From a virus (taxonomy: Duplodnaviria > Heunggongvirae > Uroviricota > Caudoviricetes), in IMG/VR virus record IMGVR_UViG_2684623189_000005: a stretch of DNA of 64,000 nt; one strand, given 5' to 3'. Shown here piece by piece: positions 28,698 through 63,921 of the stretch. The notes beneath the pieces were generated by a model. That model searched no databases. It had not been told where the DNA came from and saw only the letters and a program-made list of their open reading frames with translations. The translations under genes and the position numbers were made by a program. Each line of letters begins with the position of its first letter. The stretch's first letter is position 1.

Positions 28698-28699
28698 GA

Positions 28700-29050: not shown

Positions 29051-29180
29051 GTGTGTCTCCTCGTTTGGTGGAGACAGCATCACAAATACAGGGCGCAAAG
29101 GATTTTAAAGCGCGTTAAGAGAGCCGGGGATACGGGATGTGCAGGATAAACGATGAATTATTCACAGAGGAGAATACGAT
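29051..29180. promoter_or_regulatory. divergent intergenic region: candidate late (lysis) promoter and promoter of the P-loop gene
   Basis: 130-bp gap between divergently oriented genes. Confidence 0.35.
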
Positions 29181-29657: not shown

Positions 29658-29694
29658 GATACCTCCTGAACAGAAACAGCCCTGAAGGGCTGCA

Positions 29695-30285: not shown

Positions 30286-30366
30286 CTTTTACATTAAAAT
30301 TTCAGAACGCAGCATGATGCCGCCTTTGTCTTTTTTCTGATCCCATGGTAATTCAGCTGTTATTTT

Positions 30367-31353: not shown

Positions 31354-31811
31354 CTTCTCTTGGTATTTTTGTTCATTATTCCACCTGTTCCTATGGTTAC
31401 GTTACCTTTGATAACATTCCCCAGAACATCTCCATGAATAACCTGTTCCGCCCGTTCTCTGGAGGAGCCAGTAGTCAAGGCCGACAAAACTGAACCTTTG
31501 ACCTGTAATGGTGCCTGCCGGTAGTGCTGCAGTAACTCCATTTCATCACGTGATAAAGTTATACCTGATGACTCCCCGGTAAGAATGAACTGTACATTGG
31601 CCCCAATTCTTGCAAAGGCTGCAAGTAACTCACCTCCGGGAACAGCAACCCCTCGTTCATATTTCCCCCACATTTCTCTTGAAACGCCACAAAGGGCTGC
31701 TACTTCAGCCTGCTTGAGTGATAACCGCGAACGCTCAGCTTTGAACCGCGACGCGCAAAGAGAATCAAAATTCACATAAACCTCATTGACAATGAGAACA
31801 ATAGTTCTCAT
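31350..31811 (-). CDS. prophage repressor (XRE-family HTH)
   Basis: 153 aa; HTH ...LSLKQAEVAALCGVSREMWGKYERG...; divergent from the ner-like gene. Confidence 0.75.
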   Translation of the reverse strand: MRTIVLIVNEVYVNFDSLCASRFKAERSRLSLKQAEVAALCGVSREMWGKYERGVAVPGGELLAAFARIGANVQFILTGESSGITLSRDEMELLQHYRQAPLQVKGSVLSALTTGSSRERAEQVIHGDVLGNVIKGNVTIGTGGIMNKNTKRR

Positions 31812-31861
31812 AATCTATCACATATAAAACAAACATCATTGCATCAACAAAGGAGACAACA
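31812..31861. promoter_or_regulatory. 50-bp divergent repressor/early-operon control region
   Basis: Only non-coding sequence between the divergent repressor and ner-like genes. Confidence 0.5.
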
Positions 31862-32050
31862 ATGACTTCCGAACAAGTTAAAAATCTCTTCCGTCAGCGT
31901 GGTATCACGTTTACCCGCTGGGCCGAAGAACACGGCTACAGCCGCAATGAGGTCTATCGTGTTCTCAATGGACAGACCAAAGCTCGTTACGGCAAAGCCC
32001 ATGAAATTGCCGTAAAACTGGGATTAAAACCCACGTCAAATGCGGCATAA
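31862..32050 (+). CDS. ner: Ner-like DNA-binding protein
   Basis: 62 aa; ...ITFTRWAEEHGYSRNEVYRVLNGQ... Ner/Nlp-type helix; first gene of the early operon. Confidence 0.7.
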   Translation: MTSEQVKNLFRQRGITFTRWAEEHGYSRNEVYRVLNGQTKARYGKAHEIAVKLGLKPTSNAA

Positions 32051-32102
32051 ATTTTCCACATATGCAACAGGTTATCACATATTGCAAAAATGGAAATGTG
32101 AC

Positions 32103-32411
32103 ATGAGTAAAGTAAATATTTCCAGTTCTGGGACCCGCATCCTACGTGTACTCAAAGCTCTACGCGGTCATGCTCTGAACGGTGTTTCTAACGGTGAACT
32201 GGCATCAGCCCTGGGGGAGTCCCCAGCGAATATCAATCGAGCACTTAATACCCTTATTGAAGAGGGACTGGCCATGAAATTAGAGAACGGACGTTTCGCA
32301 CCGGGAATCCAGTTACTACAGATCGCCATGGCTCACAGTCACGAGATGGCGCGTGCACAGGATCGTATTAACGAAATCAACCAACGAGTTATTTCAGGTA
32401 GTCGTTTGTAA
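32103..32411 (+). CDS. putative winged-helix DNA-binding protein
   Basis: ~103 aa from internal Met; ...ILRVLKALRGHALNGVSNGELASALGESPANINRALNTLIEEGL... Confidence 0.5.
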   Translation: MSKVNISSSGTRILRVLKALRGHALNGVSNGELASALGESPANINRALNTLIEEGLAMKLENGRFAPGIQLLQIAMAHSHEMARAQDRINEINQRVISGSRL

Positions 32412-32421
32412 GGAGTAATCA

Positions 32422-33336
32422 ATGGGACGCACCAAATCACCCGTTAACACTGAACTGAATGTTGAGGTTCCGCTGTCAGATAACATCAATGTCAATTTGA
32501 ACGCTATGACACAGCATCGCATGGAAATTATGCAGCAGTTTGGTGATGGACTGCCTTATGAACGTGATCGCATTGTTCACGAAGCACGTTTTTATATGGC
32601 GCAGAGTGCTGAATCTATGCTGGAAGCGGGTAAGCGGCTGATCATCTTAAAAGAAAATGAGCCACACGGTGATTTTACAAACATTTTAGAAAATGAACTC
32701 GGACTTGCACCACAAGTTGCTCGCCGCATGATGCAAGCCAGTATGAAGTTTTTGGGAGAAGGTGATGAGCCAACAAAACGCTCAACGTTGAGCGTTTTGG
32801 GGAAAGCCAAACTGTACGACCTGATGGTTCTGGATAATGAAGAACTTGATGAATTGGCCGACGGCGGCACAGTTGCCGGCCTGACGCTTGACGACGTTGA
32901 TCGCATGTCAGTACGTGAATTGCGTCAGGCCCTGCGCGAAGCGCGCGAAACCAACGCAGCACAACAGCGCGTACTCGCTGACAAAAATGAAAAAATAGAC
33001 TCACTCTCCACCAGACTGGAGAAGAAATCCCGTATTCAGCCGCCTGAGCCTGATGAAGAGGTTAAGAAGCTGCGGGCGGAAGTGACAGCATTAGCGGTTG
33101 AGGCGGAATCTGCTATCGCCGTTCGACTGTCCAGCGCTTTTGAGACGCTGTGCGCATATTGTGCTGAAAACATGATTGATACCCCCAGAGACTTCATGGC
33201 AGGCCTGGTCTGTCAACTGGAAAGCACAGCGCGTAGCCTGCGCTCCACATTTGACCTGCCGGATGAGCCAACAGGCAATGCCGCGCCTTCATGGCTGACT
33301 GAGCCGACGCCACAGATTAACGGGCTGGAGGCATAA
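32422..33336 (+). CDS. hypothetical early protein with coiled-coil segment
   Basis: 304-aa ORF between ner and the transposase; no family recognised with certainty. Confidence 0.5.
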   Translation: MGRTKSPVNTELNVEVPLSDNINVNLNAMTQHRMEIMQQFGDGLPYERDRIVHEARFYMAQSAESMLEAGKRLIILKENEPHGDFTNILENELGLAPQVARRMMQASMKFLGEGDEPTKRSTLSVLGKAKLYDLMVLDNEELDELADGGTVAGLTLDDVDRMSVRELRQALREARETNAAQQRVLADKNEKIDSLSTRLEKKSRIQPPEPDEEVKKLRAEVTALAVEAESAIAVRLSSAFETLCAYCAENMIDTPRDFMAGLVCQLESTARSLRSTFDLPDEPTGNAAPSWLTEPTPQINGLEA

Positions 33337-33339
33337 CCA

Positions 33340-35109
33340 ATGAATGCTGCCCTGACTGAACGACTGGTTTATGTCGCCCGCGCGGCACGTGACGCGGGGC
33401 ATGGTAAACGCGGTGCAATATACGACGCTGCCTGTGCTGAACTTGGCATGTCCCGCGCCACTCTGCTGCGCAGGCTGAAGGAGGTCTCTGTGACTGATAA
33501 ACGCAAAAAACGCGCTGATGCCGGACGCAGCGCCCTGACCCGCGACGAAGCCGCGCTGATATCTGCCACACTGCGTGAGGCCACCCGCAAGAACGGTAAA
33601 CGCCTCTATTCCATCGCAGATGCAGTGGAAACCCTGCGGGCTAACGGCTTTATCACCGCAGGCAGAACAGATGAAACCACCGGTGAGTTTTTCCCGTTGT
33701 CTGAAGATGCCATCAGCCGTGCTCTGCGTAACTATGGCCTGCACCCGGAACAACTGGATGCTCCTGCACCGCATACCGAAGTGGCCAGTCTGCACCCCAA
33801 TCATGTCTGGCAGATTGACGCCTCACTCTGCACGCTTTACTACCTGAGCAATGGACATAAAGGGCTGCAGGTGATGGACAGCGCGAAGTTCTACAAGAAC
33901 AAGCCCGCTAACCTTGCCCGTATCGCCAGTGACCGCGTGTGGAGTTACGAGATTACCGACCATGCCAGCGGCTGGATTTACGTTGAGTATGTGACGGGCG
34001 CGGAATCAGGTGAGAACCTGTGTTCTGTGCTTATCAACGCCATGCAGGAGCGTGGCGGCGCAGACGTGCTGCACGGCGTGCCAAAAATACTCTATCTCGA
34101 CCCCGGCTCGGCAAACACCGCGGGTATGACGAAAAACATGTGCCGCTCACTGGGCATCGACCTGATAGCGCACAAGCCGCATAACGCCCGCGCCACCGGA
34201 CAGGTGGAAAAGGCGCGGGACATTATCGAACGCAAGCTGGAGCCGGGTCTGAAGTTCCGGCCGGTTCACAGTCTGGAAGAACTCAATGCGCTGGCCGCGA
34301 AATGGCGCAGCCACTTTAACGCCACGGCTGTTCACAGCCGCCACGGTAAAACCCGCACGGATATCTGGCTGAAGATTACTGCTGAGCAGCTGAAAAAAGC
34401 GCCTTCCGTTGAGGTATGTCGTGAACTGGCTGTGGCGGCACCAGAACTCCGCAAAGTCACGCCAAAACTTCGTGTCTCGTTCCGGGGCACTGAATTTGAC
34501 GTATCAACGGTACCGGGCGTACTGGTCGGTGAAAAACTGATGATTACCCGTAACCCGTGGCGCAGCGATGTGGCACAGGTGGTTCTGACCGGTGAGGACG
34601 GCCACGAGACGTTCTTCCTGGTCGAAGAAGTCAGAAAGAACGAGTTTGGCTTTGCTGAAGGCGCGGCGGTATTTGGCGAAAGTTACAAAGCCCTGCCGGA
34701 AACCCCGGCGCAGATGGCGGCAAAAGAAACCGAAGCGCTGGTCACCGGTACAGACAACGCCGCAGATGCAGCTGCCGCACGCAAGGCGAAGGCGCTGCCG
34801 TTCGGCGGGCGGCTTGACCCATATAAACATATTGATGACGCCACACTTCCGGCCTATATGCCGAAGCGAGGTCAGGCCTCTGACGTACGCGGGCCGCGCA
34901 CTGAACAACGTCCCATGACTCATGTGGAGGCCGCGAAAGCCCTGCGCGATAAGTTCAGCGCCGACGGCCTTACCTGGACGCCGGAACATTACCGCCAGTT
35001 AACGGCACAGTATCCGGACGGCGTACCGGAAGCCGCACTGGATGAAGTCATGGCCACGCTGACCACGCCGGCCCGCAGCAGCGTTATCAGCATTGTTAAC
35101 GGCAACTGA
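33340..35109 (+). CDS. DDE transposase (Mu A-like function; integrase-core fold)
   Basis: 589 aa; N-terminal HTH, central ...HVWQIDAS... and ...ILYLDPGSANTAG... DDE-type core. Confidence 0.85.
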   Translation: MNAALTERLVYVARAARDAGHGKRGAIYDAACAELGMSRATLLRRLKEVSVTDKRKKRADAGRSALTRDEAALISATLREATRKNGKRLYSIADAVETLRANGFITAGRTDETTGEFFPLSEDAISRALRNYGLHPEQLDAPAPHTEVASLHPNHVWQIDASLCTLYYLSNGHKGLQVMDSAKFYKNKPANLARIASDRVWSYEITDHASGWIYVEYVTGAESGENLCSVLINAMQERGGADVLHGVPKILYLDPGSANTAGMTKNMCRSLGIDLIAHKPHNARATGQVEKARDIIERKLEPGLKFRPVHSLEELNALAAKWRSHFNATAVHSRHGKTRTDIWLKITAEQLKKAPSVEVCRELAVAAPELRKVTPKLRVSFRGTEFDVSTVPGVLVGEKLMITRNPWRSDVAQVVLTGEDGHETFFLVEEVRKNEFGFAEGAAVFGESYKALPETPAQMAAKETEALVTGTDNAADAAAARKAKALPFGGRLDPYKHIDDATLPAYMPKRGQASDVRGPRTEQRPMTHVEAAKALRDKFSADGLTWTPEHYRQLTAQYPDGVPEAALDEVMATLTTPARSSVISIVNGN

Positions 35110-35119
35110 GGAGGGATAC

Positions 35120-36286
35120 ATGCTGGTACTGAAGCAGCAACTGAAAGAGGCCCGTATTCCACAGGCGGTGGTGGCGAGAGCTGTCGATGTTTCTGAGGCC
35201 ACGCTGGCCCAGATTGTGAATCATAACGCGTGGCCCCGCACCAGCCCCGGAGAAGTGCGCCGGCGTCTTGCGTCCTGGCTGGAAAGTCAGGGGATTGATA
35301 CAACGAAGAGTTTTGATGCTGTACAGGGCGCGGCCACGCCCCGTACAGCGGGTACCACAGATAAAACGAGCCTCAGTGAGGAAGAGAATATGTTACTCAA
35401 AAAACAGGTGTTATTTCCAGCAACCAAAAAAGCGTTTGGTCTTTTCCGTGACCCGTTCGCCGACGAAGCCATGCAGGGTTCTGATGATGTGTTCACCACT
35501 CCGGACATTCGCTACGTGCGTGAGGCGCTGTACCAGACAGCCCGTCATGGTGGGTTTATGGCCGTCATCGGTGAGTCCGGTGCGGGTAAATCCACGCTGC
35601 GCCGTGACCTGACTGAACGTATCAACCGCGAGAATGCGCCGGTGATTGTTATCGAGCCATACATCATCGCTATGGAAGACAACGATGTGAAAGGGAAAAC
35701 CCTGAAGGCAGCAGCGATTGCCGAAGCCATTATCAGTACCATCGCACCACTGGAAAGCATCAGACGCAGTCAGGACGCCCGCTTTCGCCAGCTGCATCGC
35801 GTCCTGAAAGACAGCAGCCAGGCGGGGTTCAGCCACGTTCTGGTGATTGAGGAGGCCCACAGTCTGCCCATTCCGACACTGAAACACCTCAAACGCTTTT
35901 TTGAGCTGGAGTCCGGTTTCAAAAAACTGCTGTCCATCGTGCTGATTGGCCAGCCGGAACTGGCGACAAAACTGTCTGAACGCAATATGGAAGTCCGTGA
36001 AGTCGTTCAGCGCTGTGAGGTGGTCGAACTTCTGCCTCTGGACAATAACCTTGAAGAGTTTCTGACGTTCAAACTGCAACGGGCCGGTAAACAACTGACG
36101 GACATTATGGACGCCAGCGCAGTGGATGCCATACGTGCCCGCCTGAGCAATCCGGGAAGTCATCGTAAAAATATGGTCAGCCTGCTGTATCCGCTGGCCG
36201 TCAGTAACCTGGTAATAGCCGCCATGAATCTGGCCGCTGAAATCGGGGTTCCACAGGTCAACGCTGACGTTGTCAAAGGGGTTTAA
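35120..36286 (+). CDS. transposition ATPase (MuB/TniB-like AAA+)
   Basis: Walker A GESGAGKST, Walker B HVLVIEEAH; GAGGAGGG ribosome-binding site before the ATG at 35120. Confidence 0.8.
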   Translation: MLVLKQQLKEARIPQAVVARAVDVSEATLAQIVNHNAWPRTSPGEVRRRLASWLESQGIDTTKSFDAVQGAATPRTAGTTDKTSLSEEENMLLKKQVLFPATKKAFGLFRDPFADEAMQGSDDVFTTPDIRYVREALYQTARHGGFMAVIGESGAGKSTLRRDLTERINRENAPVIVIEPYIIAMEDNDVKGKTLKAAAIAEAIISTIAPLESIRRSQDARFRQLHRVLKDSSQAGFSHVLVIEEAHSLPIPTLKHLKRFFELESGFKKLLSIVLIGQPELATKLSERNMEVREVVQRCEVVELLPLDNNLEEFLTFKLQRAGKQLTDIMDASAVDAIRARLSNPGSHRKNMVSLLYPLAVSNLVIAAMNLAAEIGVPQVNADVVKGV

Positions 36287-36288
36287 TA

Positions 36289-36558
36289 ATGAAATCCACC
36301 ACAGGTATCAACCAGCAAATCAGCAAAGTGCAGTCAGCCATTATGGCGCTTAAGGCGACGAACACGGATGTACAAAGCATCACCATCAGGGGTAACAAAC
36401 CTGTCATCCGCGTTTCCCGGAGTGCGCATTGCATGCGCATGCTTGAGCAGGGAAAGGCCTGTTATCTGTATACCGGACATGACCACAGGGGATATTTCCG
36501 TCAGGGCGTTTTCGAACTGCACGGCTGTCGCGTCGTGTGGCCGGAATCTTTGTGGTAA
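36289..36558 (+). CDS. hypothetical early protein
   Basis: 89-aa ORF tightly following the B-like gene. Confidence 0.4.
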   Translation: MKSTTGINQQISKVQSAIMALKATNTDVQSITIRGNKPVIRVSRSAHCMRMLEQGKACYLYTGHDHRGYFRQGVFELHGCRVVWPESLW

Positions 36559-36585
36559 TCAGCACAACTGGAGAAATCATAAAAA

Positions 36586-37116
36586 ATGGCAAAAAGTACA
36601 AAAGGTGCAAAACGTATCAAGGCCGCAGCAGCACTCTGGGTGCCGGGGACACGTGAAGAGGTCATTGAGGGAATCAGACTACTCGGTGACGCACAACGTG
36701 AACTGGTCAGGGCTGAAACAGAAATGAATGACGCCATTGGCGATATCACCGCACGTTATGCCCCGCTCACCGAGAGCCTGAAAAAACGCATGGCCGAACT
36801 GCAGTCCGGTATTCAGACATGGTGTGAGGCACACCGTGATGAACTGACCGGCAACGGGAAGGTGAAGTTCGCTAACCTCACCACCGGCGAGGTGCAGTGG
36901 CGAAACCGTCCGCCATCAGTCAGTATCCGTGGGGCGGATAATGTTATTGAATTACTGAGACGTCTGGGGCTTGAGCGCTTTATTCGTGTAAAAGAGGAAA
37001 TAAATAAAGACGCTATCCTGAATGAAAAAGAGGCCGTGAAAAATATTCCCGGTATTTCCATTAAAAGCGACATTGAGGATTTTTCAATAATTCCTTTTGA
37101 GCAGGATGTGCAGTAA
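36586..37116 (+). CDS. gam: Gam-like host-nuclease inhibitor (DNA end-binding)
   Basis: 176 aa; ...RFIRVKEEINKDAILNEKEAVKNIPGISIKSDIEDFSIIPFEQ... matches Mu Gam as recalled. Confidence 0.8.
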   Translation: MAKSTKGAKRIKAAAALWVPGTREEVIEGIRLLGDAQRELVRAETEMNDAIGDITARYAPLTESLKKRMAELQSGIQTWCEAHRDELTGNGKVKFANLTTGEVQWRNRPPSVSIRGADNVIELLRRLGLERFIRVKEEINKDAILNEKEAVKNIPGISIKSDIEDFSIIPFEQDVQ

Positions 37117-37213
37117 ACACACCACGTTAATTATTTAATAAAAACATTTTCTTTTTTATTCCGGCGTCAGCGCCGCGGGCTTCTGCACGCCGGAAACAGA
37201 GGAGAATTAAATC

Positions 37214-37408
37214 ATGATATTTAAATGTATTCAGTGCGAGAGGGATATAACAGCCCTGCGTTTTCACAGCGCCATCGCCGTGATGTCCGGTAAATACCAC
37301 ATCCCTGCGGTACGCGTCACCCTGGTCTGCCCGTACTGCAGCCAGCATTTTTCGGCAGACGTGCCCGTCATGGAATTCTCCCGCCCTGACAGGGAGGACT
37401 CGCAATGA
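37214..37408 (+). CDS. small zinc-ribbon protein
   Basis: 64 aa with CxxC ... CPYC pairs. Confidence 0.45.
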   Translation: MIFKCIQCERDITALRFHSAIAVMSGKYHIPAVRVTLVCPYCSQHFSADVPVMEFSRPDREDSQ

Positions 37409-37677
37409 TTACCCCACAGGAAGCACGACAGCGCACCCGAACCCTTGTTGAACACTATGTCAACGAGTGTGAATGCCGCGACCTCACCGATGTGAAGCAC
37501 GTCCTGACGGCGCTAATCAGCATGACCGCTCAGGCCATTGTGGCGACCAACGGAAAGGCGGCTGCCCTGCAGGTACTGGTGAACACACTCACCCACACGG
37601 CAGAGCATGAGGTGCCGTACCGGATGGAAACCACTGCAGAAGGCGGCCTGCACATCACCGTCAGCCGGAAGCACTGA
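37405..37677 (+). CDS. hypothetical early protein
   Basis: 90-aa ORF, start/stop coupled. Confidence 0.4.
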   Translation: MITPQEARQRTRTLVEHYVNECECRDLTDVKHVLTALISMTAQAIVATNGKAAALQVLVNTLTHTAEHEVPYRMETTAEGGLHITVSRKH

Positions 37678-37686
37678 GGGCGCGGC

Positions 37687-37983
37687 ATGACACGGAACAC
37701 CATACTCACCCGCACCGCCCTCTACCGTCTGGCCCTGCAGCGTTTCGGGCCGGACGCACAGGCCCTGAAACTGACAGAAGAGGCCGCTGAACTGGCGGCC
37801 AGTGCTGCCCGCAATCTGAACGGACAGGGCAGCGAAAGTGACCTCGCGGCAGAGCTGGCAGACGTGGAAATCATGACAGAGCAATTGCGCCTTCAGGGGA
37901 TGGACCGGCTGATTGACTTCCACAAACAGAAAAAACTGGAACGTCTGGCTGCACGACTGGGCGTGATTTACACGAACGAGTAA
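37687..37983 (+). CDS. MazG-like nucleotide pyrophosphohydrolase (small, all-alpha)
   Basis: 98 aa; EEAAELAASAA ... ELADVEIMTEQL motif pair typical of MazG/HisE-like NTP-PPases. Confidence 0.55.
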   Translation: MTRNTILTRTALYRLALQRFGPDAQALKLTEEAAELAASAARNLNGQGSESDLAAELADVEIMTEQLRLQGMDRLIDFHKQKKLERLAARLGVIYTNE

Positions 37984-37997
37984 CCGGGAGGCATTCA

Positions 37998-38213
37998 ATG
38001 GCTGACATACTCAGGGAAATCACCGCATGGACACTGATTCTTACTGGCCTGGCGACATGCCTCAGTGCGGGGGCAGCCCTGGCTGCCCTGCTGATGCACA
38101 TAACAACACAGTGGTTATGGGAAAAGCTTAAAGCAGCATACAGCCTGAAAGAGCTGTCCGACGCTGTCCGGGCATGGAAACGGCAGAAAAATACCGGAGA
38201 TACAGAACAATGA
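37998..38213 (+). CDS. small membrane protein
   Basis: 71 aa with one TM helix. Confidence 0.4.
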   Translation: MADILREITAWTLILTGLATCLSAGAALAALLMHITTQWLWEKLKAAYSLKELSDAVRAWKRQKNTGDTEQ

Positions 38214-38893
38214 CAGACCAGAATAAACACATTGAGAAACTGAAAAAGTTGCTGGCGCTGGCCGCATCCGGCAACCCGCACGAGGCCGCTCTGGCACTGC
38301 GCCGAGCCCGTAAACTGATGGATGTTCACGGCATCACACATTCCGACATTGCTATGAGTGATATTGATGAAACCATCAGTCATTACTGGCCGACAGGCAG
38401 TCTCCGTCCACCGCGCTACATGCTGGGCCTGATGAACATCATCCGCGAGGCATTTGGTGTTAACTCCATCATTCACCCCGGCACGCATCCGTCTGTGGGG
38501 TTCTACGGTAACCGGGAACGAGCGGCACTGGCTGCGTACACCTGGGAAGTGCTGGTCCGCCAACTGAAAAAGGCGCGTCAGCAGTATATCAGCGCACAGA
38601 ACAAAAGAATAAAAAACGCCACCCGTACCAGCCGTGGAAACCAGTTTGCTGAAGGCTGGGTACTGGCCGTTATCAGTGAAATACAGTCCTTTGCCCTGAC
38701 CGATGATGAGCGTGAACTGATGCAACAGTGGCTGGAACATAAATACCCGCAAACGCAAACCACCAGGGCGCGTAAACCGGGAAGAAGCCGCAATGGCGAC
38801 GCCTCGCGCTATGCGGGGTTTCGTGAAGGGCAGAACGTCAGACTGCACCGCCCGGTCAGTGGGCAGGAACAACAGAAACTGGAGGCCAGATGA
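38210..38893 (+). CDS. hypothetical early protein (phage DUF-type)
   Basis: Start at Met preceded by GGAGA; N-terminal KIEKLKKLLALAASGNPHEAALALRRARKLM motif. Confidence 0.5.
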   Translation: MTDQNKHIEKLKKLLALAASGNPHEAALALRRARKLMDVHGITHSDIAMSDIDETISHYWPTGSLRPPRYMLGLMNIIREAFGVNSIIHPGTHPSVGFYGNRERAALAAYTWEVLVRQLKKARQQYISAQNKRIKNATRTSRGNQFAEGWVLAVISEIQSFALTDDERELMQQWLEHKYPQTQTTRARKPGRSRNGDASRYAGFREGQNVRLHRPVSGQEQQKLEAR

Positions 38894-39109
38894 TTACGCT
38901 ATCAGGTAACAGCCGGAAATTAAAAGCCTGCCGAATATCTGCCAGATACCTTTTTGCCCGCGCCTTTTTTAAGAACGTCAGGCCGGGGATCACAATTGGT
39001 GTTATTGCCGGACGCGAACAGGTTGAAAAATACATGTCAGGTGCATGGTGGAATAACGACCCTGTCATTGCTGCCCGTAATATTCATATCAGTTGGGGGG
39101 ATATTCAGA

Positions 39110-39325
39110 ATGACGGCTGAATCTGTTGTATGTGCCCTGTTCTGGTATTGTTTTGCCGGTTGGTGTACTGCTGAACTGCACCGCCGTTCAGGGTTTTATT
39201 CACGTTACAGTGGTGCCGGCTACTGGATTAGCTGGTCGGTGATGTTCCTGTGCTGGCCTGTGGCGCTTCCTTTATATGTCGATTATATCGGTGGCGCAGG
39301 TAAAAGGAGCAACGATGATGACTAA
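39110..39325 (+). CDS. small Trp/Cys-rich membrane protein
   Basis: 71 aa with two hydrophobic helices. Confidence 0.4.
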   Translation: MTAESVVCALFWYCFAGWCTAELHRRSGFYSRYSGAGYWISWSVMFLCWPVALPLYVDYIGGAGKRSNDDD

Positions 39326-39767
39326 ACAACGTCTTATCCAGCTCATTCATATTGCCCGTAATGAACTGGGTATGGATGAAGACACCTACCGCCAGATGTT
39401 ACAGGGGCTGACCGGTAAAGCCTCAACCAAAGGAATGGATACCACACAACTAAACTGCGTGCTGGAATCCATGAAAAGGAAAGGCTTTCGCGTTAAGCCT
39501 GCCGGAAAAGCCAGCTCCGGTTTACCGCTGGATAACCATCCGCAGTCCAGGAAAATCCGTGCGCTATGGCTTGAAATGGCTGCTGCCGGCATTGTTCGTG
39601 ACCGTTCAGAAAATGCATTAGCGCGGTGGATCAAGCGGGAAACGGGCATCAGCGCCCTGCGCTGGCTCAATACTGAACAGGCAAGCAGTGTTATTGAGAA
39701 ACTGAAGAAGTGGCAGCACAGAGCTGCGGGAGTAAAACATGAGCGACCTGAATCAGTTTCGAAGTAA
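39315..39767 (+). CDS. GemA-like regulatory protein (Mu gp16 family)
   Basis: ~150 aa; ...ALWLEMAAAGIVRDRSENALARWIKRETGISALRWL...; AAGGAG ribosome-binding site. Confidence 0.55.
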   Translation: MMTKQRLIQLIHIARNELGMDEDTYRQMLQGLTGKASTKGMDTTQLNCVLESMKRKGFRVKPAGKASSGLPLDNHPQSRKIRALWLEMAAAGIVRDRSENALARWIKRETGISALRWLNTEQASSVIEKLKKWQHRAAGVKHERPESVSK

Positions 39768-40128
39768 AGGGCCGGAACTCCTGGTGGAACTGGCACAGCA
39801 TACCTCTGAGACCGTTCGCGAGATTATTGATATTGAGCCCGCAATTGCCGACCAGATTGGTCAGGCCGTCGCGAACCGCATGATGCAGGTCTGGGGCGGG
39901 CAAAACGTTTATTTCCCGATGGGCATGGTATGGAAGGTCAGTCAGCGCGACCGGGAAATCTTCAGGGAGTTTAACGGACGTAACCACCATGAACTGGCCC
40001 GCAAATTTGGTGTTTCGCTTCAGTGGGTCTACAGCGTGGTTAAGCGGGTAAGAAAAGAAGAACTGGATCGGATGCAGGGCAAGCTATTTGCTGATGAACC
40101 CGATGTAGATACGGAGAAAAAAGAGTAA
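39739..40128 (+). CDS. mor: Mor/C-family transcription activator
   Basis: 129 aa; C-terminal HTH ...NHHELARKFGVSLQWVYSVVKRV...; last gene before the right end. Confidence 0.75.
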   Translation: MSDLNQFRSKGPELLVELAQHTSETVREIIDIEPAIADQIGQAVANRMMQVWGGQNVYFPMGMVWKVSQRDREIFREFNGRNHHELARKFGVSLQWVYSVVKRVRKEELDRMQGKLFADEPDVDTEKKE

Positions 40129-40157
40129 TATCTGCAATCAGGCTGGAGCGAGTTCTG

Positions 40158-43491
<3,334 letters not shown>

Positions 43492-56564: not shown

Positions 56565-58476
56565 TCACTCCTCCGGACAGCTTCGCTGCCAGTTCTTTAA
56601 GGGTTGGCCGGGTCGTCTCTTCTTCCCGGGATTTTGCCAGTACAGCCAGATCAAGCTGCCAGCGTTGCACGGACACACGTAATGCCGCGTAGGCATACAC
56701 CAGGCAGTCCAGCGCTTCGTTACGCCGCTTTTTGTTATCCCACAGCAGACGCATCTTTCCTTTTTCCCACTTCTCCACAAGCTCTTCCGCGACCAGTTGC
56801 TGCGCCTCTGTCTGCGAAAAAATCTCCGGATCATCAGGAAAACGGATAGCATACGACGTGGCTTCATCCACAGGCGTGGGATCGGCTTTCATACGGGCAT
56901 AGAGAATTTCTTTTGCGGTGTCCGTCCCCACTTCACACAGATACACGCCCCGCTGATTGCGGGTTTTTGGCATGGTGATCACCGGCTTGCCATAGACAGA
57001 TGCGCCTTTTACCGGCAGCACCCGGAAAACACCGTGTTTTTTTGACCTCTGATAAACGATTTCGCCATCGATCCCCCCGATGTCCCAGCAGACACGGGAA
57101 ATGGTCATTTCGGTTCCGTCTGCATGGCGGTATTTTTTGTTGATCGCCGCATCCACACGTAACAGCGTCTCTTCCTCATCGGGACGCCCCATAATGATGA
57201 TTTTATCCACCAGAAAGGCTTCCTCTCCCGGAGCCCATCCCCAGACATACATCTCAAAACGGTTTCGCTGCGAGTCAATGCCCGCCGTCAGATAAACCAC
57301 CCGGGCAGGCACCGCCGCCGTGTAACGCACAACCTTATCCATCAGCACCTGGTGATCGAGTTTTTCGCCCACAGCCTCTTCCCAGGTCTCGCCCAGCGTG
57401 GTGTTCACAAAGGTTTTCAGGCCGTTGGGATCTTTCAGTGCATCCAGCCAGTCATAGACAATCTGTACCCAGGTGGTGAACGGACTGTACGCCGTCCAGA
57501 TATGGAAAGTGATGGAGCGCGGCGGCGGAATTTCATCACCCCGGGCGCTGAAAAACATCAGGCCGTCACGGGTCCACATGCCCGTGTTTTCACAGATCCA
57601 CCGCCCGTTACTCTGGTCAAGCTCAGACTGATGGATCACACAGCCATGATGCTCACAAAGGTAGAAAACACTTTCTGGCTTATTCTTCTCCCACTTAAGA
57701 CCGAAAGGCGAGGCATCATCGCCAAATTTCAGATACTGCTCCTCCCCACAGTGCGGACAGGGCACATAAAAACGCATGAAGTGTGCCGACTCGTTAGCGG
57801 CTTTTTCGATCTGGCAGGAGCCTTTGATTTTAGGCGTCGAGCCGCGAATGGATTTTGGCCATACAGAGCCCTCAATACGTTTATCCCCCAGCAGGGTTGG
57901 CGAACCCTCTTTTTCAACATCCGGTTCGAACGAGGAAAGCTCGTCATAACAGACCACATCCACGGATTTTTCACGGTAGTTTTTTGCTGCCGCACCACCC
58001 AGACACCAGAACCCCACACCGGAGGAAAAACGCTTCAGGGTGAGCGTATTATCGCGGTGTTTTCTTCCGAACCATGGAGCCAGCTCCAGCAATGCAGGAA
58101 CATCCCTTATCGTTGGCTCAACATGAGATTTCATAAAATCTTCAGCAGCTGAGTCCGTGGGCTGAAAAAGAAGGCTGTTGCGTGATTTATGCTCAATAAA
58201 ATAAGCCTCCACTCCCAGCAACATCTTTGTATAACCAACACGGGCAGATTTAATCAGGTTAACCGTGCGAATCAGATCGTTGCCCATACAGTTCATGATG
58301 CCAACCTGAAACGGCAGTGTTTCCCATCGCCCCGGGGTATAAGACGACTCTTTAGGAAGGTAATAATGTTTATTGGCCCACTGAACTGTCGTCAGTGGAA
58401 CAGGAATAATGAGAGATAAAAGCCCTGTAGCTATCGCACCGGCTGCATTAGCTGCCTTCTGCGCGTCTGAAATCAT
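56548..58476 (-). CDS. A: terminase large subunit A
   Basis: ~642 aa from internal Met MISDAQK...; ...[24 protein letters not shown]... Confidence 0.9.
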
Positions 58477-58996
58477 CGATCCACCCGCCCACGTTTTCAC
58501 CGGCCTTAGCTGCAACATTGGAGGCTTTCGCGATTTCAGTTTTCACCACATCAAGGTGTGATGGTGAAATGTCCGGATATTTACGCTGTAATGTCAACGG
58601 CACACGCACAAGTATCCCCGAAATCTCCTGTGCCACACGTTGCAGAATGAAGGTAAACAGTTCAGTTTCCAGCACTACTCCGTCTTCACGGGCATTTTTC
58701 AGTTCCTGCGCATCTGCCTGCGCTTTTGTGAGCCGGTAGCGTTCATAGTCAATGGTGCCGGGTTGTAAATCTGACTCCGCTGCCGCACGCAAATCGTCCA
58801 GTTCTTTGCGGAGCTTTTCGTTTTCGATATCAGTTTCCCTCTGCGCATACCACTGAATTGCCATGGCAGTATCAAATACAGATTCAATGCCCTTACTACC
58901 TTTGGAGGCGCAAGGGAGTCCCTGAGACTGCCAGCGTTCAATCGTCCGCGGGTCCACGTTGAAAATTTCGGCAAGCCTCTTTTTATTAACCTTCAT
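58448..58996 (-). CDS. Nu1: terminase small subunit Nu1
   Basis: 182 aa, [28 protein letters not shown]... Confidence 0.9.
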
Positions 58997-59332: not shown

Positions 59333-59584
59333 ATGAAAATCAGAAATATTCTCGCTATCTCCCTTGCGACATCATCCTTCAGTTGCCTGGCATTTAAATC
59401 CTCGCCCAATGTGCTACCAGGACCAACGAATCAACTAACTGCGGTAGAAAGTAAAATTATCGGACATTTTTATGCCCCACACAGTACATTACCCGGAACA
59501 ACCATCACAGGGACATGTGACGCCTCCCCCGTCCCGGGATGCACCTGTCCGTTTTGTACTATGCTGCGTAGCCAAAACCGATAA
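59333..59584 (+). CDS. small secreted Cys-rich protein (moron)
   Basis: Signal-peptide-like N-terminus MKIRNILAISLATSSFSCLA; C-terminus GTCDASPVPGCTCPFCTM. Confidence 0.4.
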   Translation: MKIRNILAISLATSSFSCLAFKSSPNVLPGPTNQLTAVESKIIGHFYAPHSTLPGTTITGTCDASPVPGCTCPFCTMLRSQNR

Positions 59585-59947
59585 CATCCGCATTTACCTG
59601 GTATTCCATGATGAGTTCACGCAGCGACTGATAGAGGAAGGAAAGATGGTTAGTAAAAGCAAGGCGCATTGCCGCCGCATGCTGCAGGCATTGCAACAGA
59701 CGAGAGCAGGTATTTTTGACCAGTTGGAAAACTGCCAGCATACTTTGCCCGAGTATATCGCCATCTCATCGGAAACCAGTGCAACTCTTATTCATCGGGT
59801 TCCACCAGAGAAAAAGAAGAAATGAACAGTGAGGCGTTGTGTGGCATACAACGCCTTCTTCCATCATTCCTCGTCAGCCATGACAAAAATATAACCGCTG
59901 GCTCTTTCATTTTTCTCCTGCTTCCAGCCCCTCTCTACCTGGAAGCA

Positions 59948-60274
59948 TCAAGGACGTGACGGCGTAAAGATAAATTGTCTCTTCACTCCCTGACAGGGGC
60001 GATTCTTTTCAAATCGCCATTTCGCCATGGCCTTCACCACTTCATCACGAAACAAATTATGAGGCTCTGAGCGGAGAAAAACGATCCGTGTCACAGTCCC
60101 ATCAGCACCAATATCGAACTTAACCTCAACCAGCCCCTTGATATAATTTGCTGCAGCATATTCCGGATATCGTGGATACACCGTCACTAATTGCCGGGGC
60201 TCATCAGCTTTTTGCTGCGAGCATCCCACTGCCAGGACAGATAACAGAAAAAGTAGTAAAAGGCGTCTTTTCAT
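59948..60274 (-). CDS. lipoprotein with TonB-C-terminal-like domain (moron)
   Basis: MKRRLLLLFLLSVLAVGCSQ signal/lipobox; ...YPRYPEYAAANYIKGLVEVKFDIGADGTVTRIVFL... resembles the TonB C-terminal fold. Confidence 0.55.
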   Translation of the reverse strand: MKRRLLLLFLLSVLAVGCSQQKADEPRQLVTVYPRYPEYAAANYIKGLVEVKFDIGADGTVTRIVFLRSEPHNLFRDEVVKAMAKWRFEKNRPCQGVKRQFIFTPSRP

Positions 60275-60754
60275 TTTTATTCCTACGGGTCTTATTCTGA
60301 CAATATATCCTGTGTTCCAGACTGCCACATCACCACATCCTGTGCCATTATCTGACTCACATTACATACATCGCATCGGGATACAGTAGTAGCACTTTCT
60401 GTAATACAGCTTCCTGTTTCTTCCACCATCGCACCGGGATAAACCCGCGAATCATTAACGCGGTAAAAACCCGGTGTGCATCGTTTTTAATTATTCCCGC
60501 ACACTCACGCAGAAGGAATTCCCCGTCGGGCTACGGTCATGGTTAATGCGGGAATACGGCGACGATACAGCGCAGCTAAAAGGGTAATGGACGGATAGAC
60601 CGGTTTATTTCATTCCACAGGATTCTGAGTGTCCCCAACTTCCTCCAATAGTCTGAGCCCACCTGTGTAGTTTTAATTTTCATCAATCCATTTAACTATC
60701 GTTTAATTGTTGTCACATAGGATTCTGCCGTTTTTAACAATGCAGGATAATAAG

Positions 60755-61048
60755 ATGAAAAAAATGTTGTTTTCTGCCGCTCTGGCAATGCTTATTACAG
60801 GATGTGCTCAACAGACGTTTACTGTTGGAAACAAACCTACAGCAGTAACACCAAAGGAAACCATCACCCATCATTTCTTCGTTTCGGGAATTGGGCAGAA
60901 GAAAACTGTCGATGCAGCAAAAATTTGTGGTGGTGCAGAAAATGTTGTTAAAACAGAAACCCAGCAAACATTCGTAAATGGATTGCTCGGTTTTATTACT
61001 TTAGGCATTTATACTCCGCTGGAAGCGCGTGTGTATTGCTCACAATAA
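60755..61048 (+). CDS. bor: Bor-family lipoprotein
   Basis: 97 aa, MKKMLFSAALAMLITGCAQQTFTVGNKPTAVTPKE...; opposite strand to the lysis genes as in lambda. Confidence 0.85.
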   Translation: MKKMLFSAALAMLITGCAQQTFTVGNKPTAVTPKETITHHFFVSGIGQKKTVDAAKICGGAENVVKTETQQTFVNGLLGFITLGIYTPLEARVYCSQ

Positions 61049-61079: not shown

Positions 61080-61553
61080 CTATCTGCACTGCTCATTAAT
61101 ATACTTCTGGGTTCCTTCCAGTTGTTTTTGCATAGTGATCAGCCTCTCTCTGAGGGTGAAATAATCCCGTTCAGCGGTGTCTGCCAGTCGGGGGGAGGCT
61201 GCATTATCCACGCCGGAGGCGGTGGTGGCTTCACGCACTGACTGACAGACTGCTTTGATGTGCAACCGACGACGACCAGCGGCAACATCATCACGCAGAG
61301 CATCATTTTCAGCTTTCGCATCAGCTAACTCCTTCGTGTATTTTGCATCGAGCGCAGCAACATCACGCTGACGCATCTGTATGTCAGTAATTACCGCGTT
61401 CGCCAGCGTCAGTTCTCTGGCATTTTTGTCGCGCTGGGCTTTGTAGGTAATGGCGTTATCACGGTAATGATTAACAGCCCATGACAGGCAGACGATGATG
61501 CAGATAACCAGAGCGGAGATAATCGCGGTTACTCTGTTCATTGCTGACCCCAC
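61080..61553 (-). CDS. Rz: i-spanin Rz
   Basis: N-terminal TM then coiled coil; overlaps the endolysin end. Confidence 0.85.
61139..61321 (-). CDS. Rz1: o-spanin Rz1 (embedded lipoprotein)
   Basis: 60 aa, lipobox VVGC, PPPPP-rich, +1 frame within Rz. Confidence 0.8.
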
Positions 61554-62420: not shown

Positions 62421-62838
62421 TGACGAAGTAACCACTCTTAACAGCATAACCAATTTTTTACGTACGTAAACTACTAAATGATATTTGTGAGAATGCCACC
62501 GAGTGTTCAAAACACCACCACAAATGCATAAGAAAACTTCAACAAATAACCAGTTAATAATTTCCGATGTTATTTTTAGTTTGTTTAAATTAAGCTAAAG
62601 AATTATAGAGCACTTATAAATAAGTGCCATTAATATAAATTAGCTAATAGATTTATTTTTGTTCAGACAAGAGCCATGAATAGGATTAGATAGAAAAGGT
62701 TCAGATAAAAATAGAGATCTACTTCACAAATTAAATGAGAAACTAAAACTTACATCTTGAAATAATCACATTGATTAGATGAATATTTATCGCGCAGTGA
62801 CATCATTTTTTAATAATAGTTCAAAAAAAGGGCGTACA
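62421..62838. promoter_or_regulatory. AT-rich divergent regulatory region (late promoter/antitermination side and porin promoter side)
   Basis: ~420 bp non-coding AT-rich DNA between the porin (+) and lysis operon (-). Confidence 0.4.
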
Positions 62839-63921
62839 ATGAAAAAATTAACAGTGGCAATTTCTGCTGTAGCTGCATCAGTACTGATGGCGATGTCTGC
62901 TCAGGCAGCTGAAATTTATAATAAAGACAGTAACAAGCTGGATCTATACGGGAAAGTTAATGCCAAGCACTACTTCTCCTCTAATGATGCAGATGATGGT
63001 GATACTACTTATGCCCGTCTTGGCTTCAAAGGTGAAACCCAAATCAACGATCAACTGACTGGTTTCGGTCAGTGGGAATATGAATTCAAAGGCAACCGTG
63101 CTGAATCTCAAGGTTCTTCCAAAGACAAAACCCGTCTTGCATTTGCAGGCCTGAAATTTGGTGATTACGGCTCAATCGATTACGGCCGTAACTACGGTGT
63201 AGCATACGACATCGGTGCGTGGACTGACGTTCTGCCAGAATTCGGTGGTGATACCTGGACCCAAACAGATGTGTTCATGACTGGTCGCACTACTGGTGTT
63301 GCAACTTATCGTAACAACGACTTCTTTGGTCTGGTCGATGGCCTGAACTTTGCTGCTCAGTATCAGGGTAAAAATGACCGCACTGACGTAACTGAAGCCA
63401 ATGGTGATGGTTTCGGTTTCTCCACTACTTATGAGTATGAAGGATTCGGCGTGGGTGCAACCTATGCTAAATCAGATCGCACTGACGGTCAGGTCGCCTA
63501 TGGTAAGAGCAAATTCAATGCCTCCGGCAAAAATGCGGAAGTATGGGCTGCAGGCCTGAAATATGATGCGAACAATATCTATCTGGCTACCACATATTCT
63601 GAAACTCAGAATATGACCGTTTTTGGTAATAACCATATTGCAAACAAAGCACAAAACTTTGAAGCAGTAGCACAATATCAGTTTGACTTCGGTCTGCGTC
63701 CATCTGTTGCTTACCTTCAGTCAAAAGGTAAAGACCTTGGTGTTCATGGTGACCGAGACTTAGTCAAGTATGTCGATGTCGGTGCTACTTACTACTTTAA
63801 TAAAAACATGTCCACTTTTGTTGATTACAAAATCAACTTAATTGACGATAGTAAGTTTACCAAAACAGCTGGTATTGATACCGACGACATCGTCGCTGTA
63901 GGTCTGGTTTATCAGTTCTAA
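62839..63921 (+). CDS. nmpC: phage-encoded general porin (NmpC/Lc/OmpC family)
   Basis: Signal peptide [23 protein letters not shown], ends ...VAVGLVYQF; beta-barrel porin signature throughout. Confidence 0.85.

What the first reader, a model, noticed from the sequence alone, without database searches (positions are those of the whole stretch)
59948..60274. Prophage lipoprotein with TonB-C-terminal-like fold near cos
A 108-aa lipoprotein encoded between bor and cos has a domain resembling the TonB C-terminal domain (YPxxA...G.V.V.F.I..DG.V...VF). A surface-exposed TonB-C mimic could interfere with TonB-dependent receptors and so block phages or colicins that use them, in the manner of Cor-type exclusion lipoproteins.
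Basis: inference. Interest (0 to 1): 0.5.

Follow-up and report, generated by a model that had tools for sequence, protein, structure and literature searches.

The report
Phage lipoprotein copy of TonB's receptor-binding domain
A phage-21-type prophage encodes a small outer-membrane lipoprotein that consists almost entirely of the receptor-binding end of the host protein TonB. It most likely jams TonB-powered outer-membrane transporters, but nobody appears to have tested it, although about 30% of complete E. coli genomes carry such a gene.

Summary
Window 59948..60274 (minus strand) encodes a 108-aa protein. It has a lipoprotein signal peptide (Cys18, Ser at +2) and a 7-residue tether. The rest aligns without gaps to E. 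coli TonB residues 150-230 (Pfam TonB_C E 7e-13; PDB E 1e-14). The AlphaFold model fits TonB in the BtuB and FhuA complexes at 0.9-1.0 Å. It lacks TonB's membrane anchor and proline-rich spacer, so it can bind receptors but cannot energise them.

The gene is identical to phage 21 CPT_21_73 and is already annotated as "TonB C-terminal domain protein" or "TonB family protein". I found no functional study.

The same architecture recurs in prophages of other Enterobacterales, usually after the spanin genes and before terminase. Two E. coli alleles give dN/dS 0.12. Several distant lineages carry a Fur-box-like site just upstream; the window copy does not.

Best explanation (inferred, about 0.45): a periplasm-facing decoy that occupies TonB boxes and blocks TonB-dependent phages, colicins and siderophore uptake. 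"Surface-exposed" is unsupported, and it is not a Cor/Llp relative. The gene is known; the mechanism is unpublished and easy to test.

The parts
59948..60274 (-). Coding sequence of the 108-aa lipoprotein made of a TonB C-terminal domain (stop codon included). Identical to phage 21 CPT_21_73.
60221..60274 (-). Codons 1-18: lipoprotein signal peptide MKRRLLLLFLLSVLAVG plus the lipid-modified Cys18 (lipobox A-V-G-C). Ser19 at +2 predicts outer-membrane sorting.
   Evidence: Sequence read directly. The Cys is invariant in the family alignment, and every viral-contig relative examined has a lipobox.
60200..60220 (-). Codons 19-25 (SQQKADE): a short tether between the lipid anchor and the domain. 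It is 7-14 residues long across the family.
59951..60199 (-). Codons 26-108: TonB C-terminal domain, aligning to E. coli TonB P153-T235. Y36-P37 match Y163-P164. F53, F75, W86, F88 and F103 match F180, F202, W213, Y215 and F230. The beta3 strand (residues 94-103) is the strand that pairs with TonB boxes in 2GSK and 2GRX.
60281..60284 (-). Ribosome-binding site AGGA, 6 nt before the ATG.
   Evidence: also annotated in phage 21
59173..59184 (.). cosN cohesive-end sequence (reverse complement of GGGCGGCGACCT). The ends of the phage 21 genome map here.
60755..61048 (+). bor (context). It is antisense to the late operon, lies between Rz and the TonB-CTD gene, and is present in only about 33 of 58 related allele-1 loci.
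61080..61553 (-). Rz i-spanin, with the embedded Rz1 o-spanin at 61139..61321 (context). This is a complete spanin pair, so the TonB-CTD lipoprotein is not the spanin.
58448..58996 (-). Small terminase subunit Nu1 (context). It is the next late gene after cos, on the same strand.
59333..59825 (+). Two plus-strand ORFs that accompany allele 1 in nearly every related locus that extends this far. One is 83 aa (59333..59584) with a signal peptide and a Cys-rich tail. The other is 59 aa (59646..59825) and matches phrog_4843. Function unknown.

Best explanation
The gene encodes an outer-membrane lipoprotein whose mature part is only the TonB C-terminal domain, held 7 residues from its lipid anchor on the periplasmic face of the outer membrane.

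Proposed mechanism, step by step:
1. It has the fold and the beta3 edge strand with which TonB captures the 'TonB box' of TonB-dependent transporters such as FhuA, BtuB, FepA and Cir, and of group-B colicins.
2. It lacks the N-terminal transmembrane anchor that couples TonB to ExbB/ExbD, and it lacks the proline-rich spacer.
3. It should therefore bind TonB boxes without delivering energy, and so act as a tethered dominant-negative decoy that keeps real TonB off the receptors.
4. The expected consequences are resistance to phages that need energised TonB (T1 and phi80 types), to group-B colicins, catecholate microcins and albomycin, at the price of reduced siderophore and B12 uptake.

What is shown: domain identity, architecture, conservation, purifying selection and genomic position.
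What is inferred: topology, binding, inhibition and the selective benefit.

The window copy sits inside the late transcription unit and has no recognisable promoter of its own. Several distant family members have a Fur-box-like site just upstream, which suggests expression in lysogens under iron limitation, when the receptors are derepressed.
For: Domain and structure:
- Pfam TonB_C and TIGR01352 both score above their cut-offs.
- The protein is about 40% identical, without gaps, to E. coli TonB 150-230, which covers the whole fragment crystallised with BtuB.
- The AlphaFold model has pLDDT about 97 over the domain. It fits 2gsk_B at 1.0 Å and 2grx_C at 0.9 Å.
- The YP motif and all five aromatic residues of the TonB CTD are retained.

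What is missing:
- The full-length TonB equivalog models fail: 45-69 bits against cut-offs of 265-448, matching only the C-terminal 80 residues.
- The N-terminus is a lipobox signal peptide.

Conservation:
- The same architecture (lipobox, 7-14-residue tether, CTD, no Asp at +2) holds in relatives down to about 31% identity. They occur in Klebsiella phage ST13-OXA48phi12.4, in 48 further IMG/VR contigs, and in Raoultella, Shimwellia and Erwinia genomes.
- dN/dS is 0.12 between the two E. coli alleles, at dS about 1.4-1.5.
- Allele 1 is in 1224 and allele 2 in 415 of 5426 complete E. coli genomes.

Precedents:
[quoted passage not shown] This is Howard et al. 2001, J Bacteriol 183:5885, as cited in PMC9841981. 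That the fragments also reduced colicin M and phi80 sensitivity is my recollection; I could not read the paper.
- T5 Llp is an inner-leaflet outer-membrane lipoprotein that inactivates FhuA from the periplasmic side.

Regulation in relatives:
- Fur-box-like sites matching 13-16 of 19 positions lie 20-66 nt upstream in four or five lineages. In the strongest lineages the site is the best match in the roughly 12-kb locus.
Against: - There is no experimental datum for this protein. No paper was found in nine full-text searches, five of them aimed at this gene or mechanism.
- The window allele has no Fur-box-like site (best 10-11 of 19) and no sigma-70 consensus hit upstream on its strand. It may therefore be made only late in lytic growth, when exclusion and colicin protection are worth little.
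- A general TonB block would starve a lysogen of iron exactly when a Fur-controlled gene would be switched on.
- The residues equivalent to TonB R158, N159, Q160 and R166, which touch the TonB box or plug, are not conserved: T, V, Y and Y here, and K, A, L in allele 2. Binding strength and range are therefore unknown.
- It has no hit in PADLOC.
- No complex could be modelled.
Confidence: 0.45

Rival explanations
1. The biochemistry is the same, a TonB-box-binding outer-membrane lipoprotein, but the benefit is physiological rather than defensive. The protein would be a lysogenic-conversion factor that tunes or brakes TonB-dependent import (iron, haem, B12, receptor signalling) for the host under iron limitation. 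It would belong to an iron-related cargo set.
For: - Fur-box-like sites lie upstream in several lineages.
- Phage 21 also carries sitABCD, an iron/manganese transporter, in its b region.
- The gene sits at a classic moron site next to bor.
- It is very common in pathogenic and commensal E. coli.
Against: - The window allele lacks the Fur-like site.
- Reducing iron uptake has no obvious benefit to the host.
- No expression data exist.
- sitABCD lies about 20 kb away in phage 21 and is not linked to the gene in other carriers such as JLK-2012 or the Klebsiella phage.
Confidence: 0.2
2. It is a late-gene accessory of lysis or envelope breakdown. Made with the holin, endolysin and spanins, the outer-membrane-tethered domain would bind an envelope partner (peptidoglycan, Lpp/OmpA or a transporter plug). 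That would help time or complete outer-membrane disruption, or would shut down import late in infection.
For: - In at least five phage lineages with different endolysins and terminases, the gene comes directly after Rz/Rz1 and before terminase, on the late strand.
- No terminator or promoter was detected between Rz and the gene on that strand in the window.
- PHROG 1267, which this protein matches end to end (E 5e-43), is labelled 'Rz-like spanin'.
Against: - A complete Rz/Rz1 pair is already present.
- The protein is a folded alpha/beta domain, unlike the small proline-rich o-spanins.
- bor lies between it and Rz here and is absent elsewhere, which shows this is a variable cargo slot.
- In L123 the gene sits in a different context, with no lysis or terminase genes within several kb and a cI/LexA-type repressor gene about 2 kb away.
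- Fur-like sites argue for independent regulation in relatives.
- The PHROG label is probably annotation by neighbourhood.
Confidence: 0.15
3. It is displayed on the cell surface. There it would act outside the cell, for example by binding the exposed loops of transporters, phage tails or host factors, in the way Bor is linked to serum resistance.
For: - It is an outer-membrane lipoprotein next to bor.
- A few E. coli lipoproteins are surface-exposed (general knowledge).
Against: - E. coli has no general pathway for surface display of lipoproteins.
- Every known partner of a TonB CTD, the TonB boxes, is periplasmic (structures 2GSK and 2GRX).
- The 7-residue tether cannot cross the membrane.
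- Llp, the best-studied phage analogue, faces the periplasm.
Confidence: 0.05
4. It is a functionless remnant of a captured tonB gene, as the RAST labels 'partial tonB-like protein' and 'TonB fragment' imply.
For: - Database names such as 'Partial tonB-like membrane protein' and 'TonB fragment'.
- Truncated or frameshifted copies exist, for example P0003 (130 member sequences) and P0035.
Against: - dN/dS is 0.12 over saturated synonymous sites.
- The gained lipobox and short tether are conserved down to about 31% identity across genera.
- The ORF is intact and identical in phage 21 and in 56 of 58 allele-1 IMG/VR contigs.
Confidence: 0.03

Closest known systems
E. coli TonB C-terminal domain (residues ~150-239; PDB 1U07, 1XX3, 2GSK, 2GRX)
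   Same: About 40% identical, aligned without gaps over 80 residues. Same fold (0.9-1.5 Å, target TM 0.91-0.92). The YP motif, five aromatic residues and the TonB-box-pairing beta3 strand are all retained.
   Different: It has no N-terminal transmembrane helix or ExbBD coupling and no proline-rich spacer. It is anchored to the outer membrane by lipid rather than to the inner membrane. The Q160-region residues differ, and the tail after beta3 is 4 residues shorter. It cannot transduce energy.
Engineered periplasmic TonB fragments (Howard, Herrmann, Stratilo and Braun 2001, J Bacteriol 183:5885)
   Same: These are a TonB C-terminal portion exported to the periplasm without its membrane anchor. 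They inhibit transport through FecA and FhuA (cited in PMC9841981). This is the direct functional precedent for a decoy.
   Different: They are laboratory constructs, soluble and overexpressed. The phage protein is natural, lipid-tethered next to the receptors, diverged about 60% from host TonB, and untested.
T5 Llp and the Cor proteins of phi80, N15, HK022 and mEp167
   Same: They are small phage-encoded outer-membrane lipoproteins that act on a TonB-dependent transporter. Llp acts from the periplasmic side to exclude other phages.
   Different: There is no sequence or fold relationship (no Cor PHROG hit; the fold is TonB-CTD). Llp and Cor are specific for FhuA, and Llp acts allosterically on the plug and loops. 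A TonB-box decoy would be receptor-generic and would affect only TonB-dependent steps, so it should not block T5.
Lambda Bor and Lom (lysogenic-conversion 'moron' outer-membrane proteins)
   Same: Small outer-membrane cargo genes in the lysis-to-cos or tail-end slots of lambdoid phages. bor is the immediate neighbour.
   Different: Unrelated sequences. bor is antisense to late transcription with its own promoter. The TonB-CTD gene is co-directional with the late genes, and no promoter was detected for the window copy.
Rz1-type o-spanins (the label of PHROG 1267)
   Same: Small outer-membrane lipoproteins encoded beside Rz.
   Different: o-Spanins are short, proline-rich, largely unstructured and partnered with an i-spanin. 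Here a separate Rz/Rz1 pair exists and the protein is a folded TonB domain.

Membership tests
TonB_C domain family (Pfam PF03544 / TIGR01352) | Scores above the curated cut-off of the domain models | tested here: met
   PF03544 scores 49.2 bits against 24.6, E 7e-13. TIGR01352 scores 47.4 bits against 27.1.
TonB_C domain family (Pfam PF03544 / TIGR01352) | The alpha/beta fold of the TonB C-terminal domain, with a three-stranded sheet whose beta3 edge binds TonB boxes | tested here: met
   The AlphaFold model has pLDDT about 97 over residues 26-105, with strands 47-55, 61-70 and 94-103 and helices 38-42 and 76-83. Foldseek gives 1u07_A at E 1.8e-8, 2gsk_B at rmsd 1.0 Å and 2grx_C at rmsd 0.9 Å.
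TonB energy transducer (NCBIfam PRK10819 equivalogs) | Full-length match above the equivalog cut-off | tested here: not met
   Scores of 45-69 bits against cut-offs of 265-448. Only model positions of about 150-240 are matched.
TonB energy transducer (NCBIfam PRK10819 equivalogs) | An uncleaved N-terminal transmembrane anchor that couples to ExbB/ExbD | tested here: not met
   The N-terminus is an 18-residue lipoprotein signal peptide ending in A-V-G-C. The TonB alignment starts only at residue 23-26.
TonB energy transducer (NCBIfam PRK10819 equivalogs) | A proline-rich periplasm-spanning spacer | tested here: not met
   Only 7 residues (SQQKADE) separate Cys18 from the domain.
TonB-box binding (function of the TonB CTD) | Physical binding to the TonB box of FhuA, BtuB, FepA or colicins | not testable with these tools
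   No complex prediction or experiment was available. The beta3 strand is present, but the equivalents of R158, N159, Q160 and R166 differ.
Bacterial outer-membrane lipoprotein | A lipobox ([LVI][ASTVI][GAS]C) after a basic and hydrophobic signal peptide, with no Asp at +2 | tested here: met
   The PS51257 pattern is fulfilled by MKRRLLLLFLLSVLAVGC, followed by Ser at +2. The Cys is invariant in the family, and a lipobox was found in every one of the 45 distinct upstream contexts. Actual lipidation and localisation were not tested.
Cor / Llp superinfection-exclusion lipoproteins | Sequence or fold similarity to Cor or Llp | tested here: not met
   No hit to the Cor PHROG 1119 or to any Cor or Llp family. 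All top structural matches are TonB CTDs.
Cor / Llp superinfection-exclusion lipoproteins | Inactivation of FhuA as a phage receptor | not testable with these tools
   This needs plating assays with T1, phi80 and T5.
o-Spanin (the label of PHROG 1267) | A short, proline-rich, unstructured outer-membrane lipoprotein that serves as the sole partner of the i-spanin | tested here: not met
   A canonical Rz (61080..61553) with embedded Rz1 (61139..61321) is present. This protein is a folded domain, separated from Rz by bor.
Fur-regulated gene | A Fur box (GATAATGATAATCATTATC) overlapping the promoter | tested here: not met
   The window copy's best match is 10-11 of 19 in the 150-250 nt upstream, no better than background. 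Relatives match 13-16 of 19 at -20 to -66. This is a consensus match only, with no binding data.

The most novel reading that the evidence does not exclude
Temperate phages of Enterobacterales have captured the receptor-binding end of host TonB, fused it to a lipoprotein signal and turned it into a receptor-generic decoy. One small protein would then blunt every TonB-energised entry route at once: T1/phi80-type phages, group-B colicins, catecholate microcins and sideromycins. In several lineages it would be switched on by Fur when those receptors are derepressed. About 30% of complete E. coli genomes would carry this unrecognised exclusion and immunity mechanism based on molecular mimicry.
Probability: 0.35. 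Interest if true: 0.7.

Novelty: new variant of a known kind. Interest (0 to 1): 0.55.

Why it matters
If the decoy mechanism is right, a very common prophage gene changes how a large share of E. coli strains respond to TonB-dependent phages, colicins, microcins and siderophore-antibiotic conjugates such as albomycin or cefiderocol-type drugs. That bears on phage therapy, microcin-based probiotics and Trojan-horse antibiotics.

It would be exclusion by mimicry of a host energy transducer, which differs from the receptor-specific Llp/Cor mechanism. It would also be a natural counterpart of the engineered TonB fragments long used in the laboratory, and a natural tool for probing TonB-transporter coupling.

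If it is not right, this remains a conserved, selected, widely carried phage protein with a known fold and an unknown role.

Tried and rejected
- **Literature.** Nine full-text searches, five of them aimed at this gene or mechanism, found no functional study. The phage 21 genome announcement does not mention TonB. The NC-SV prophage paper attributes its protection to an sRNA at cI, not to this gene. Two O157 omics papers that mention CP-933N do not mention TonB in their main text. Howard et al. 2001 could not be read.
- **First structure prediction.** A 7-sequence alignment gave pLDDT 58.7 and was discarded. A 26-sequence alignment fixed this.
- **Defence library.** PADLOC gave no hit.
- **RNA in the bor-to-gene spacer.** Rfam gave nothing meaningful, and folding energy gave z = -1.7.
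- **Promoter and terminator scan.** No minus-strand sigma-70 hit upstream. The hairpin at 59833-59857 has no clear T-run on the minus strand.
- **Fur box in the window copy.** Not found.
- **Self-exclusion.** Rejected, because phage 21 uses LamB.
- **Spanin identity.** Rejected, because Rz/Rz1 are present.
- **Genome-collection scans.** Two scans with broad alignments failed for lack of a conserved stretch. A narrower alignment returned only 8 loci.

Full report
**1. What is at the coordinates**

The ORF at 59948..60274 lies on the minus strand. It encodes 108 residues: MKRRLLLLFLLSVLAVGCSQQKADEPRQLVTVYPRYPEYAAANYIKGLVEVKFDIGADGTVTRIVFLRSEPHNLFRDEVVKAMAKWRFEKNRPCQGVKRQFIFTPSRP. An AGGA ribosome-binding site sits 6 nt upstream.

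The N-terminus has a basic stretch, a hydrophobic core and A-V-G-C18, which fits the bacterial lipobox pattern. Ser at +2 means there is no inner-membrane retention signal. This is read from the sequence and general knowledge of Lol sorting; no dedicated predictor was available.

- bor at 60755..61048 (+) (Pfam Lambda_Bor, E 1e-30).
- cosN at 59173-59184, the reverse complement of GGGCGGCGACCT. The phage 21 genome ends map there.
- On the same minus strand: S21 holin, R21 SAR endolysin and Rz/Rz1 upstream; Nu1 and terminase A downstream.

**2. The TonB resemblance is real and complete**

- Pfam TonB_C scores 49.2 bits (cut-off 24.6, E 7e-13). TIGR01352 scores 47.4 bits (cut-off 27.1).
- Against PDB sequences the best hits are all E. 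coli TonB C-terminal domains (1u07, 1xx3, 2gsk, 2grx; E about 1e-14). Residues 24-103 align without gaps to TonB 151-230.
- With that register, Y36-P37 equal Y163-P164. F53, F75, W86, F88 and F103 equal F180, F202, W213, Y215 and F230. Residues 94-103 are the beta3 strand.
- A first AlphaFold run on a shallow alignment was poor (pLDDT 58.7). A 26-sequence alignment gave mean pLDDT 87.9, about 97 across the domain.
- Foldseek against the PDB returned TonB CTDs in the top 16 places. These include TonB bound to BtuB (2gsk_B, rmsd 1.0 Å, target TM 0.92) and to FhuA (2grx_C, rmsd 0.9 Å).

**3. It is not a TonB**

- The full-length TonB equivalog models fail by a wide margin (45-69 bits against 265-448) and match only their last 80 or so positions.
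- There is no transmembrane anchor and no proline-rich spacer.
- Seven residues (SQQKADE) link the lipidated Cys to the position equivalent to TonB P153.
- The protein therefore keeps the receptor-binding module and has lost everything needed to draw energy from ExbB/ExbD.

**4. It is already annotated but apparently unstudied**

- The DNA is identical to phage 21 (OL657228), where the gene is CPT_21_73, "TonB C-terminal domain protein".
- RefSeq calls it "TonB family protein". It is present at 95% identity or more in 1224 of 5426 complete E. coli genomes, including Nissle 1917.
- RAST-style names are [quoted passage not shown] and "TonB fragment".
- A second allele, 72% identical in protein, sits in JLK-2012 and in Stx1a phages, and in 415 genomes.
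- Nine full-text literature searches, five of them aimed at this gene or mechanism, found no functional work.
- PADLOC has no model for it.
- PHROG 1267 is essentially this family (E 5e-43, end to end) but carries the label "Rz-like spanin". I regard that label as an error of annotation by neighbourhood, because a canonical Rz with embedded Rz1 is present.

**5. A conserved phage family**

- An exhaustive HMMER search found many short relatives of about 107-133 aa that align from residue 1. Many have lipoboxes and a few have plain signal peptides.
- In viral contigs, every relative examined has a lipobox, a 7-14-residue tether, the domain, and no Asp at +2. This holds for the Klebsiella type, a P0037 type, and three more lineages down to about 31% identity.
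- Genome hits name Raoultella, Shimwellia and Erwinia.
- The position is strikingly constant. The gene comes just after the spanin gene and before the terminase genes, on the late strand. This holds in phages with different endolysins (SAR lysozyme, GH19-like) and different packaging modules.
- One lineage (L123) has it in a different context, with no lysis or terminase genes nearby and a repressor-type gene about 2 kb away.
- In allele-1 loci, bor is present in about 33 of 58, so this is a variable cargo slot.
- dN/dS between the two E. coli alleles is 0.12-0.13, at dS about 1.4-1.5. That excludes a decaying fragment.

**6. Regulation**

- For the window copy I found no sigma-70 consensus hit on the minus strand upstream and no convincing terminator between Rz and the gene. 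The spacer holds no Rfam family and no unusually stable fold.
- By position the gene is part of the Q-antiterminated late transcript. Expression in the lysogen is unproven.
- Several distant lineages carry a Fur-box-like sequence 20-66 nt before the start codon: 16/19 in L112 and in most of the L124-L129 group (15/19 in L125 and L127), 15/19 in L113-L122, 13-14/19 in much of the Klebsiella type (12/19 in the rest, including the named Klebsiella phage), 13-14/19 in L123 and L130, and 13/19 in E. coli allele 2.
- In the strongest lineages that site is the single best match in the roughly 12-kb locus. The chance of such a match within 150 nt is about 0.01-0.06 in most of these lineages, and 0.13-0.29 for the weakest Klebsiella-type and allele-2 variants.
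- The window allele matches only 10-11/19. Relative to allele 2, it has lost half of that element.
- These are consensus matches, not binding data.

**7. Mechanism**

The best-supported reading has four parts:
- The protein is a tethered, dominant-negative TonB-box binder on the periplasmic face of the outer membrane.
- Precedent: overexpressing TonB's periplasmic domain inhibits iron import through the transporters (Howard et al. 2001, cited in PMC9841981). TonB is scarce relative to its transporters, which compete for it (same source).
- Precedent: phages already use inner-leaflet outer-membrane lipoproteins against a TonB-dependent transporter (Llp).
- Geometry: the short tether puts the domain where TonB boxes emerge.

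Predicted phenotype: resistance to T1/phi80-type phages, group-B colicins, catecholate microcins and albomycin. No effect is expected on T5, lambda or Tol-dependent colicins. There should be some cost in siderophore and B12 uptake.

Phage 21 itself uses LamB (PMC11336670), so this would be exclusion of other phages, not of itself.

Weak points:
- There is no experiment.
- Expression of the window copy may be late only.
- Blocking iron uptake under iron limitation carries a cost.
- The residues equivalent to R158, N159, Q160 and R166 have diverged.

I put this explanation at about 0.45. The rivals share the remainder:
- An iron-physiology conversion factor using the same biochemistry (0.2).
- A late lysis or envelope accessory (0.15).
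- A surface-exposed factor (0.05).
- A dead remnant (0.03).

**8.

- The fold claim is confirmed.
- "Surface-exposed" and "in the manner of Cor" are not supported as stated.
- The interference idea is reasonable and specific, but untested.

**9. Novelty and score**

The gene and its domain are in public annotation. The architecture, a lipid-tethered TonB CTD on its own, forms a conserved and selected phage family, and its likely decoy role is not described in any paper I could find. I class it as a new variant of a known kind: a phage outer-membrane lipoprotein aimed at TonB-dependent transport. Interest is 0.55. The idea is cheap to test, bears on about 30% of complete E. coli genomes, and touches phage, colicin and siderophore-drug susceptibility.

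Noticed in passing
window 3079..40289: A 37.2-kb transposable (Mu/BcepMu-like) prophage is inserted in tail gene J of the phage-21-like prophage. It has TG...CA ends and a 6-bp direct duplication, CCCCAC, at 3073-3078 and 40290-40295. Phage 21 sequence continues exactly on both sides. The J ORF (40258..43491) lacks about 94 C-terminal codons, so the lambdoid prophage cannot make infectious tails. The transposase-like (33340..35109), MuB-like (35093..36286), Gam-like (36586..37116) and Mor-like (39739..40128) genes read rightwards. The morphogenesis genes (about 3.1-31 kb) read leftwards. The gene names are my reading of the ORF translations, not family searches.
   Followed up: partly
L132 (phage 21, OL657228 21967..24502): Phage 21 carries sitABCD, an iron/manganese ABC transporter, in its b region. 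This is a second iron-related cargo in the same phage as the TonB-CTD lipoprotein. Window 1..3078 matches the phage 21 stretch just upstream of it.
   Followed up: no
L112, L116, L124-L129, L084-L109, L123, L130, L002/L062 (20-66 nt upstream of the gene): Fur-box-like sequences matching 13-16 of 19 positions of GATAATGATAATCATTATC lie immediately upstream of the TonB-CTD lipoprotein gene in several distant lineages. In the strongest lineages the site is the best match in the locus. The window allele lacks it.
   Followed up: partly
window 59333..59584 (+) and 59646..59825 (+): Two ORFs antisense to late transcription lie between the TonB-CTD gene and cos. One is an 83-aa protein with a signal peptide and a Cys-rich tail (…TGTCDASPVPGCTCPFCTMLRSQNR) and no family hit. 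The other is a 59-aa protein matching phrog_4843 (E 3e-46). Both accompany allele 1 in nearly every related locus that extends this far. The phage 21 GenBank record annotates different, minus-strand ORFs here.
   Followed up: partly
window 62779..63921 (+): A 380-aa ORF that looks like an OmpC/NmpC-type porin, judged from its translation only (no family search was run). It lies upstream of the S21 holin, on the opposite strand to the late genes. Phage 21 has tRNA genes at this position instead.
   Followed up: no
PHROG 1267: The PHROG family that this protein matches end to end (E 5e-43) is labelled 'Rz-like spanin'. The members are TonB-CTD lipoproteins, so the label is probably a propagated mis-annotation.
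   Followed up: partly
proteins P0036, P0043, P0047 and others: Many long proteins (about 300-1300 aa) in the representative library contain 2-6 tandem TonB_C-like stretches. I did not examine them.
   Followed up: no
P0003 (112 aa, 130 member sequences) and P0035 (59 aa): Frameshifted or truncated variants of the gene circulate in E. coli. P0003 loses the beta3 strand. P0035, named 'truncated TonB-like membrane protein encoded within prophage', has lost the lipobox Cys.
   Followed up: no
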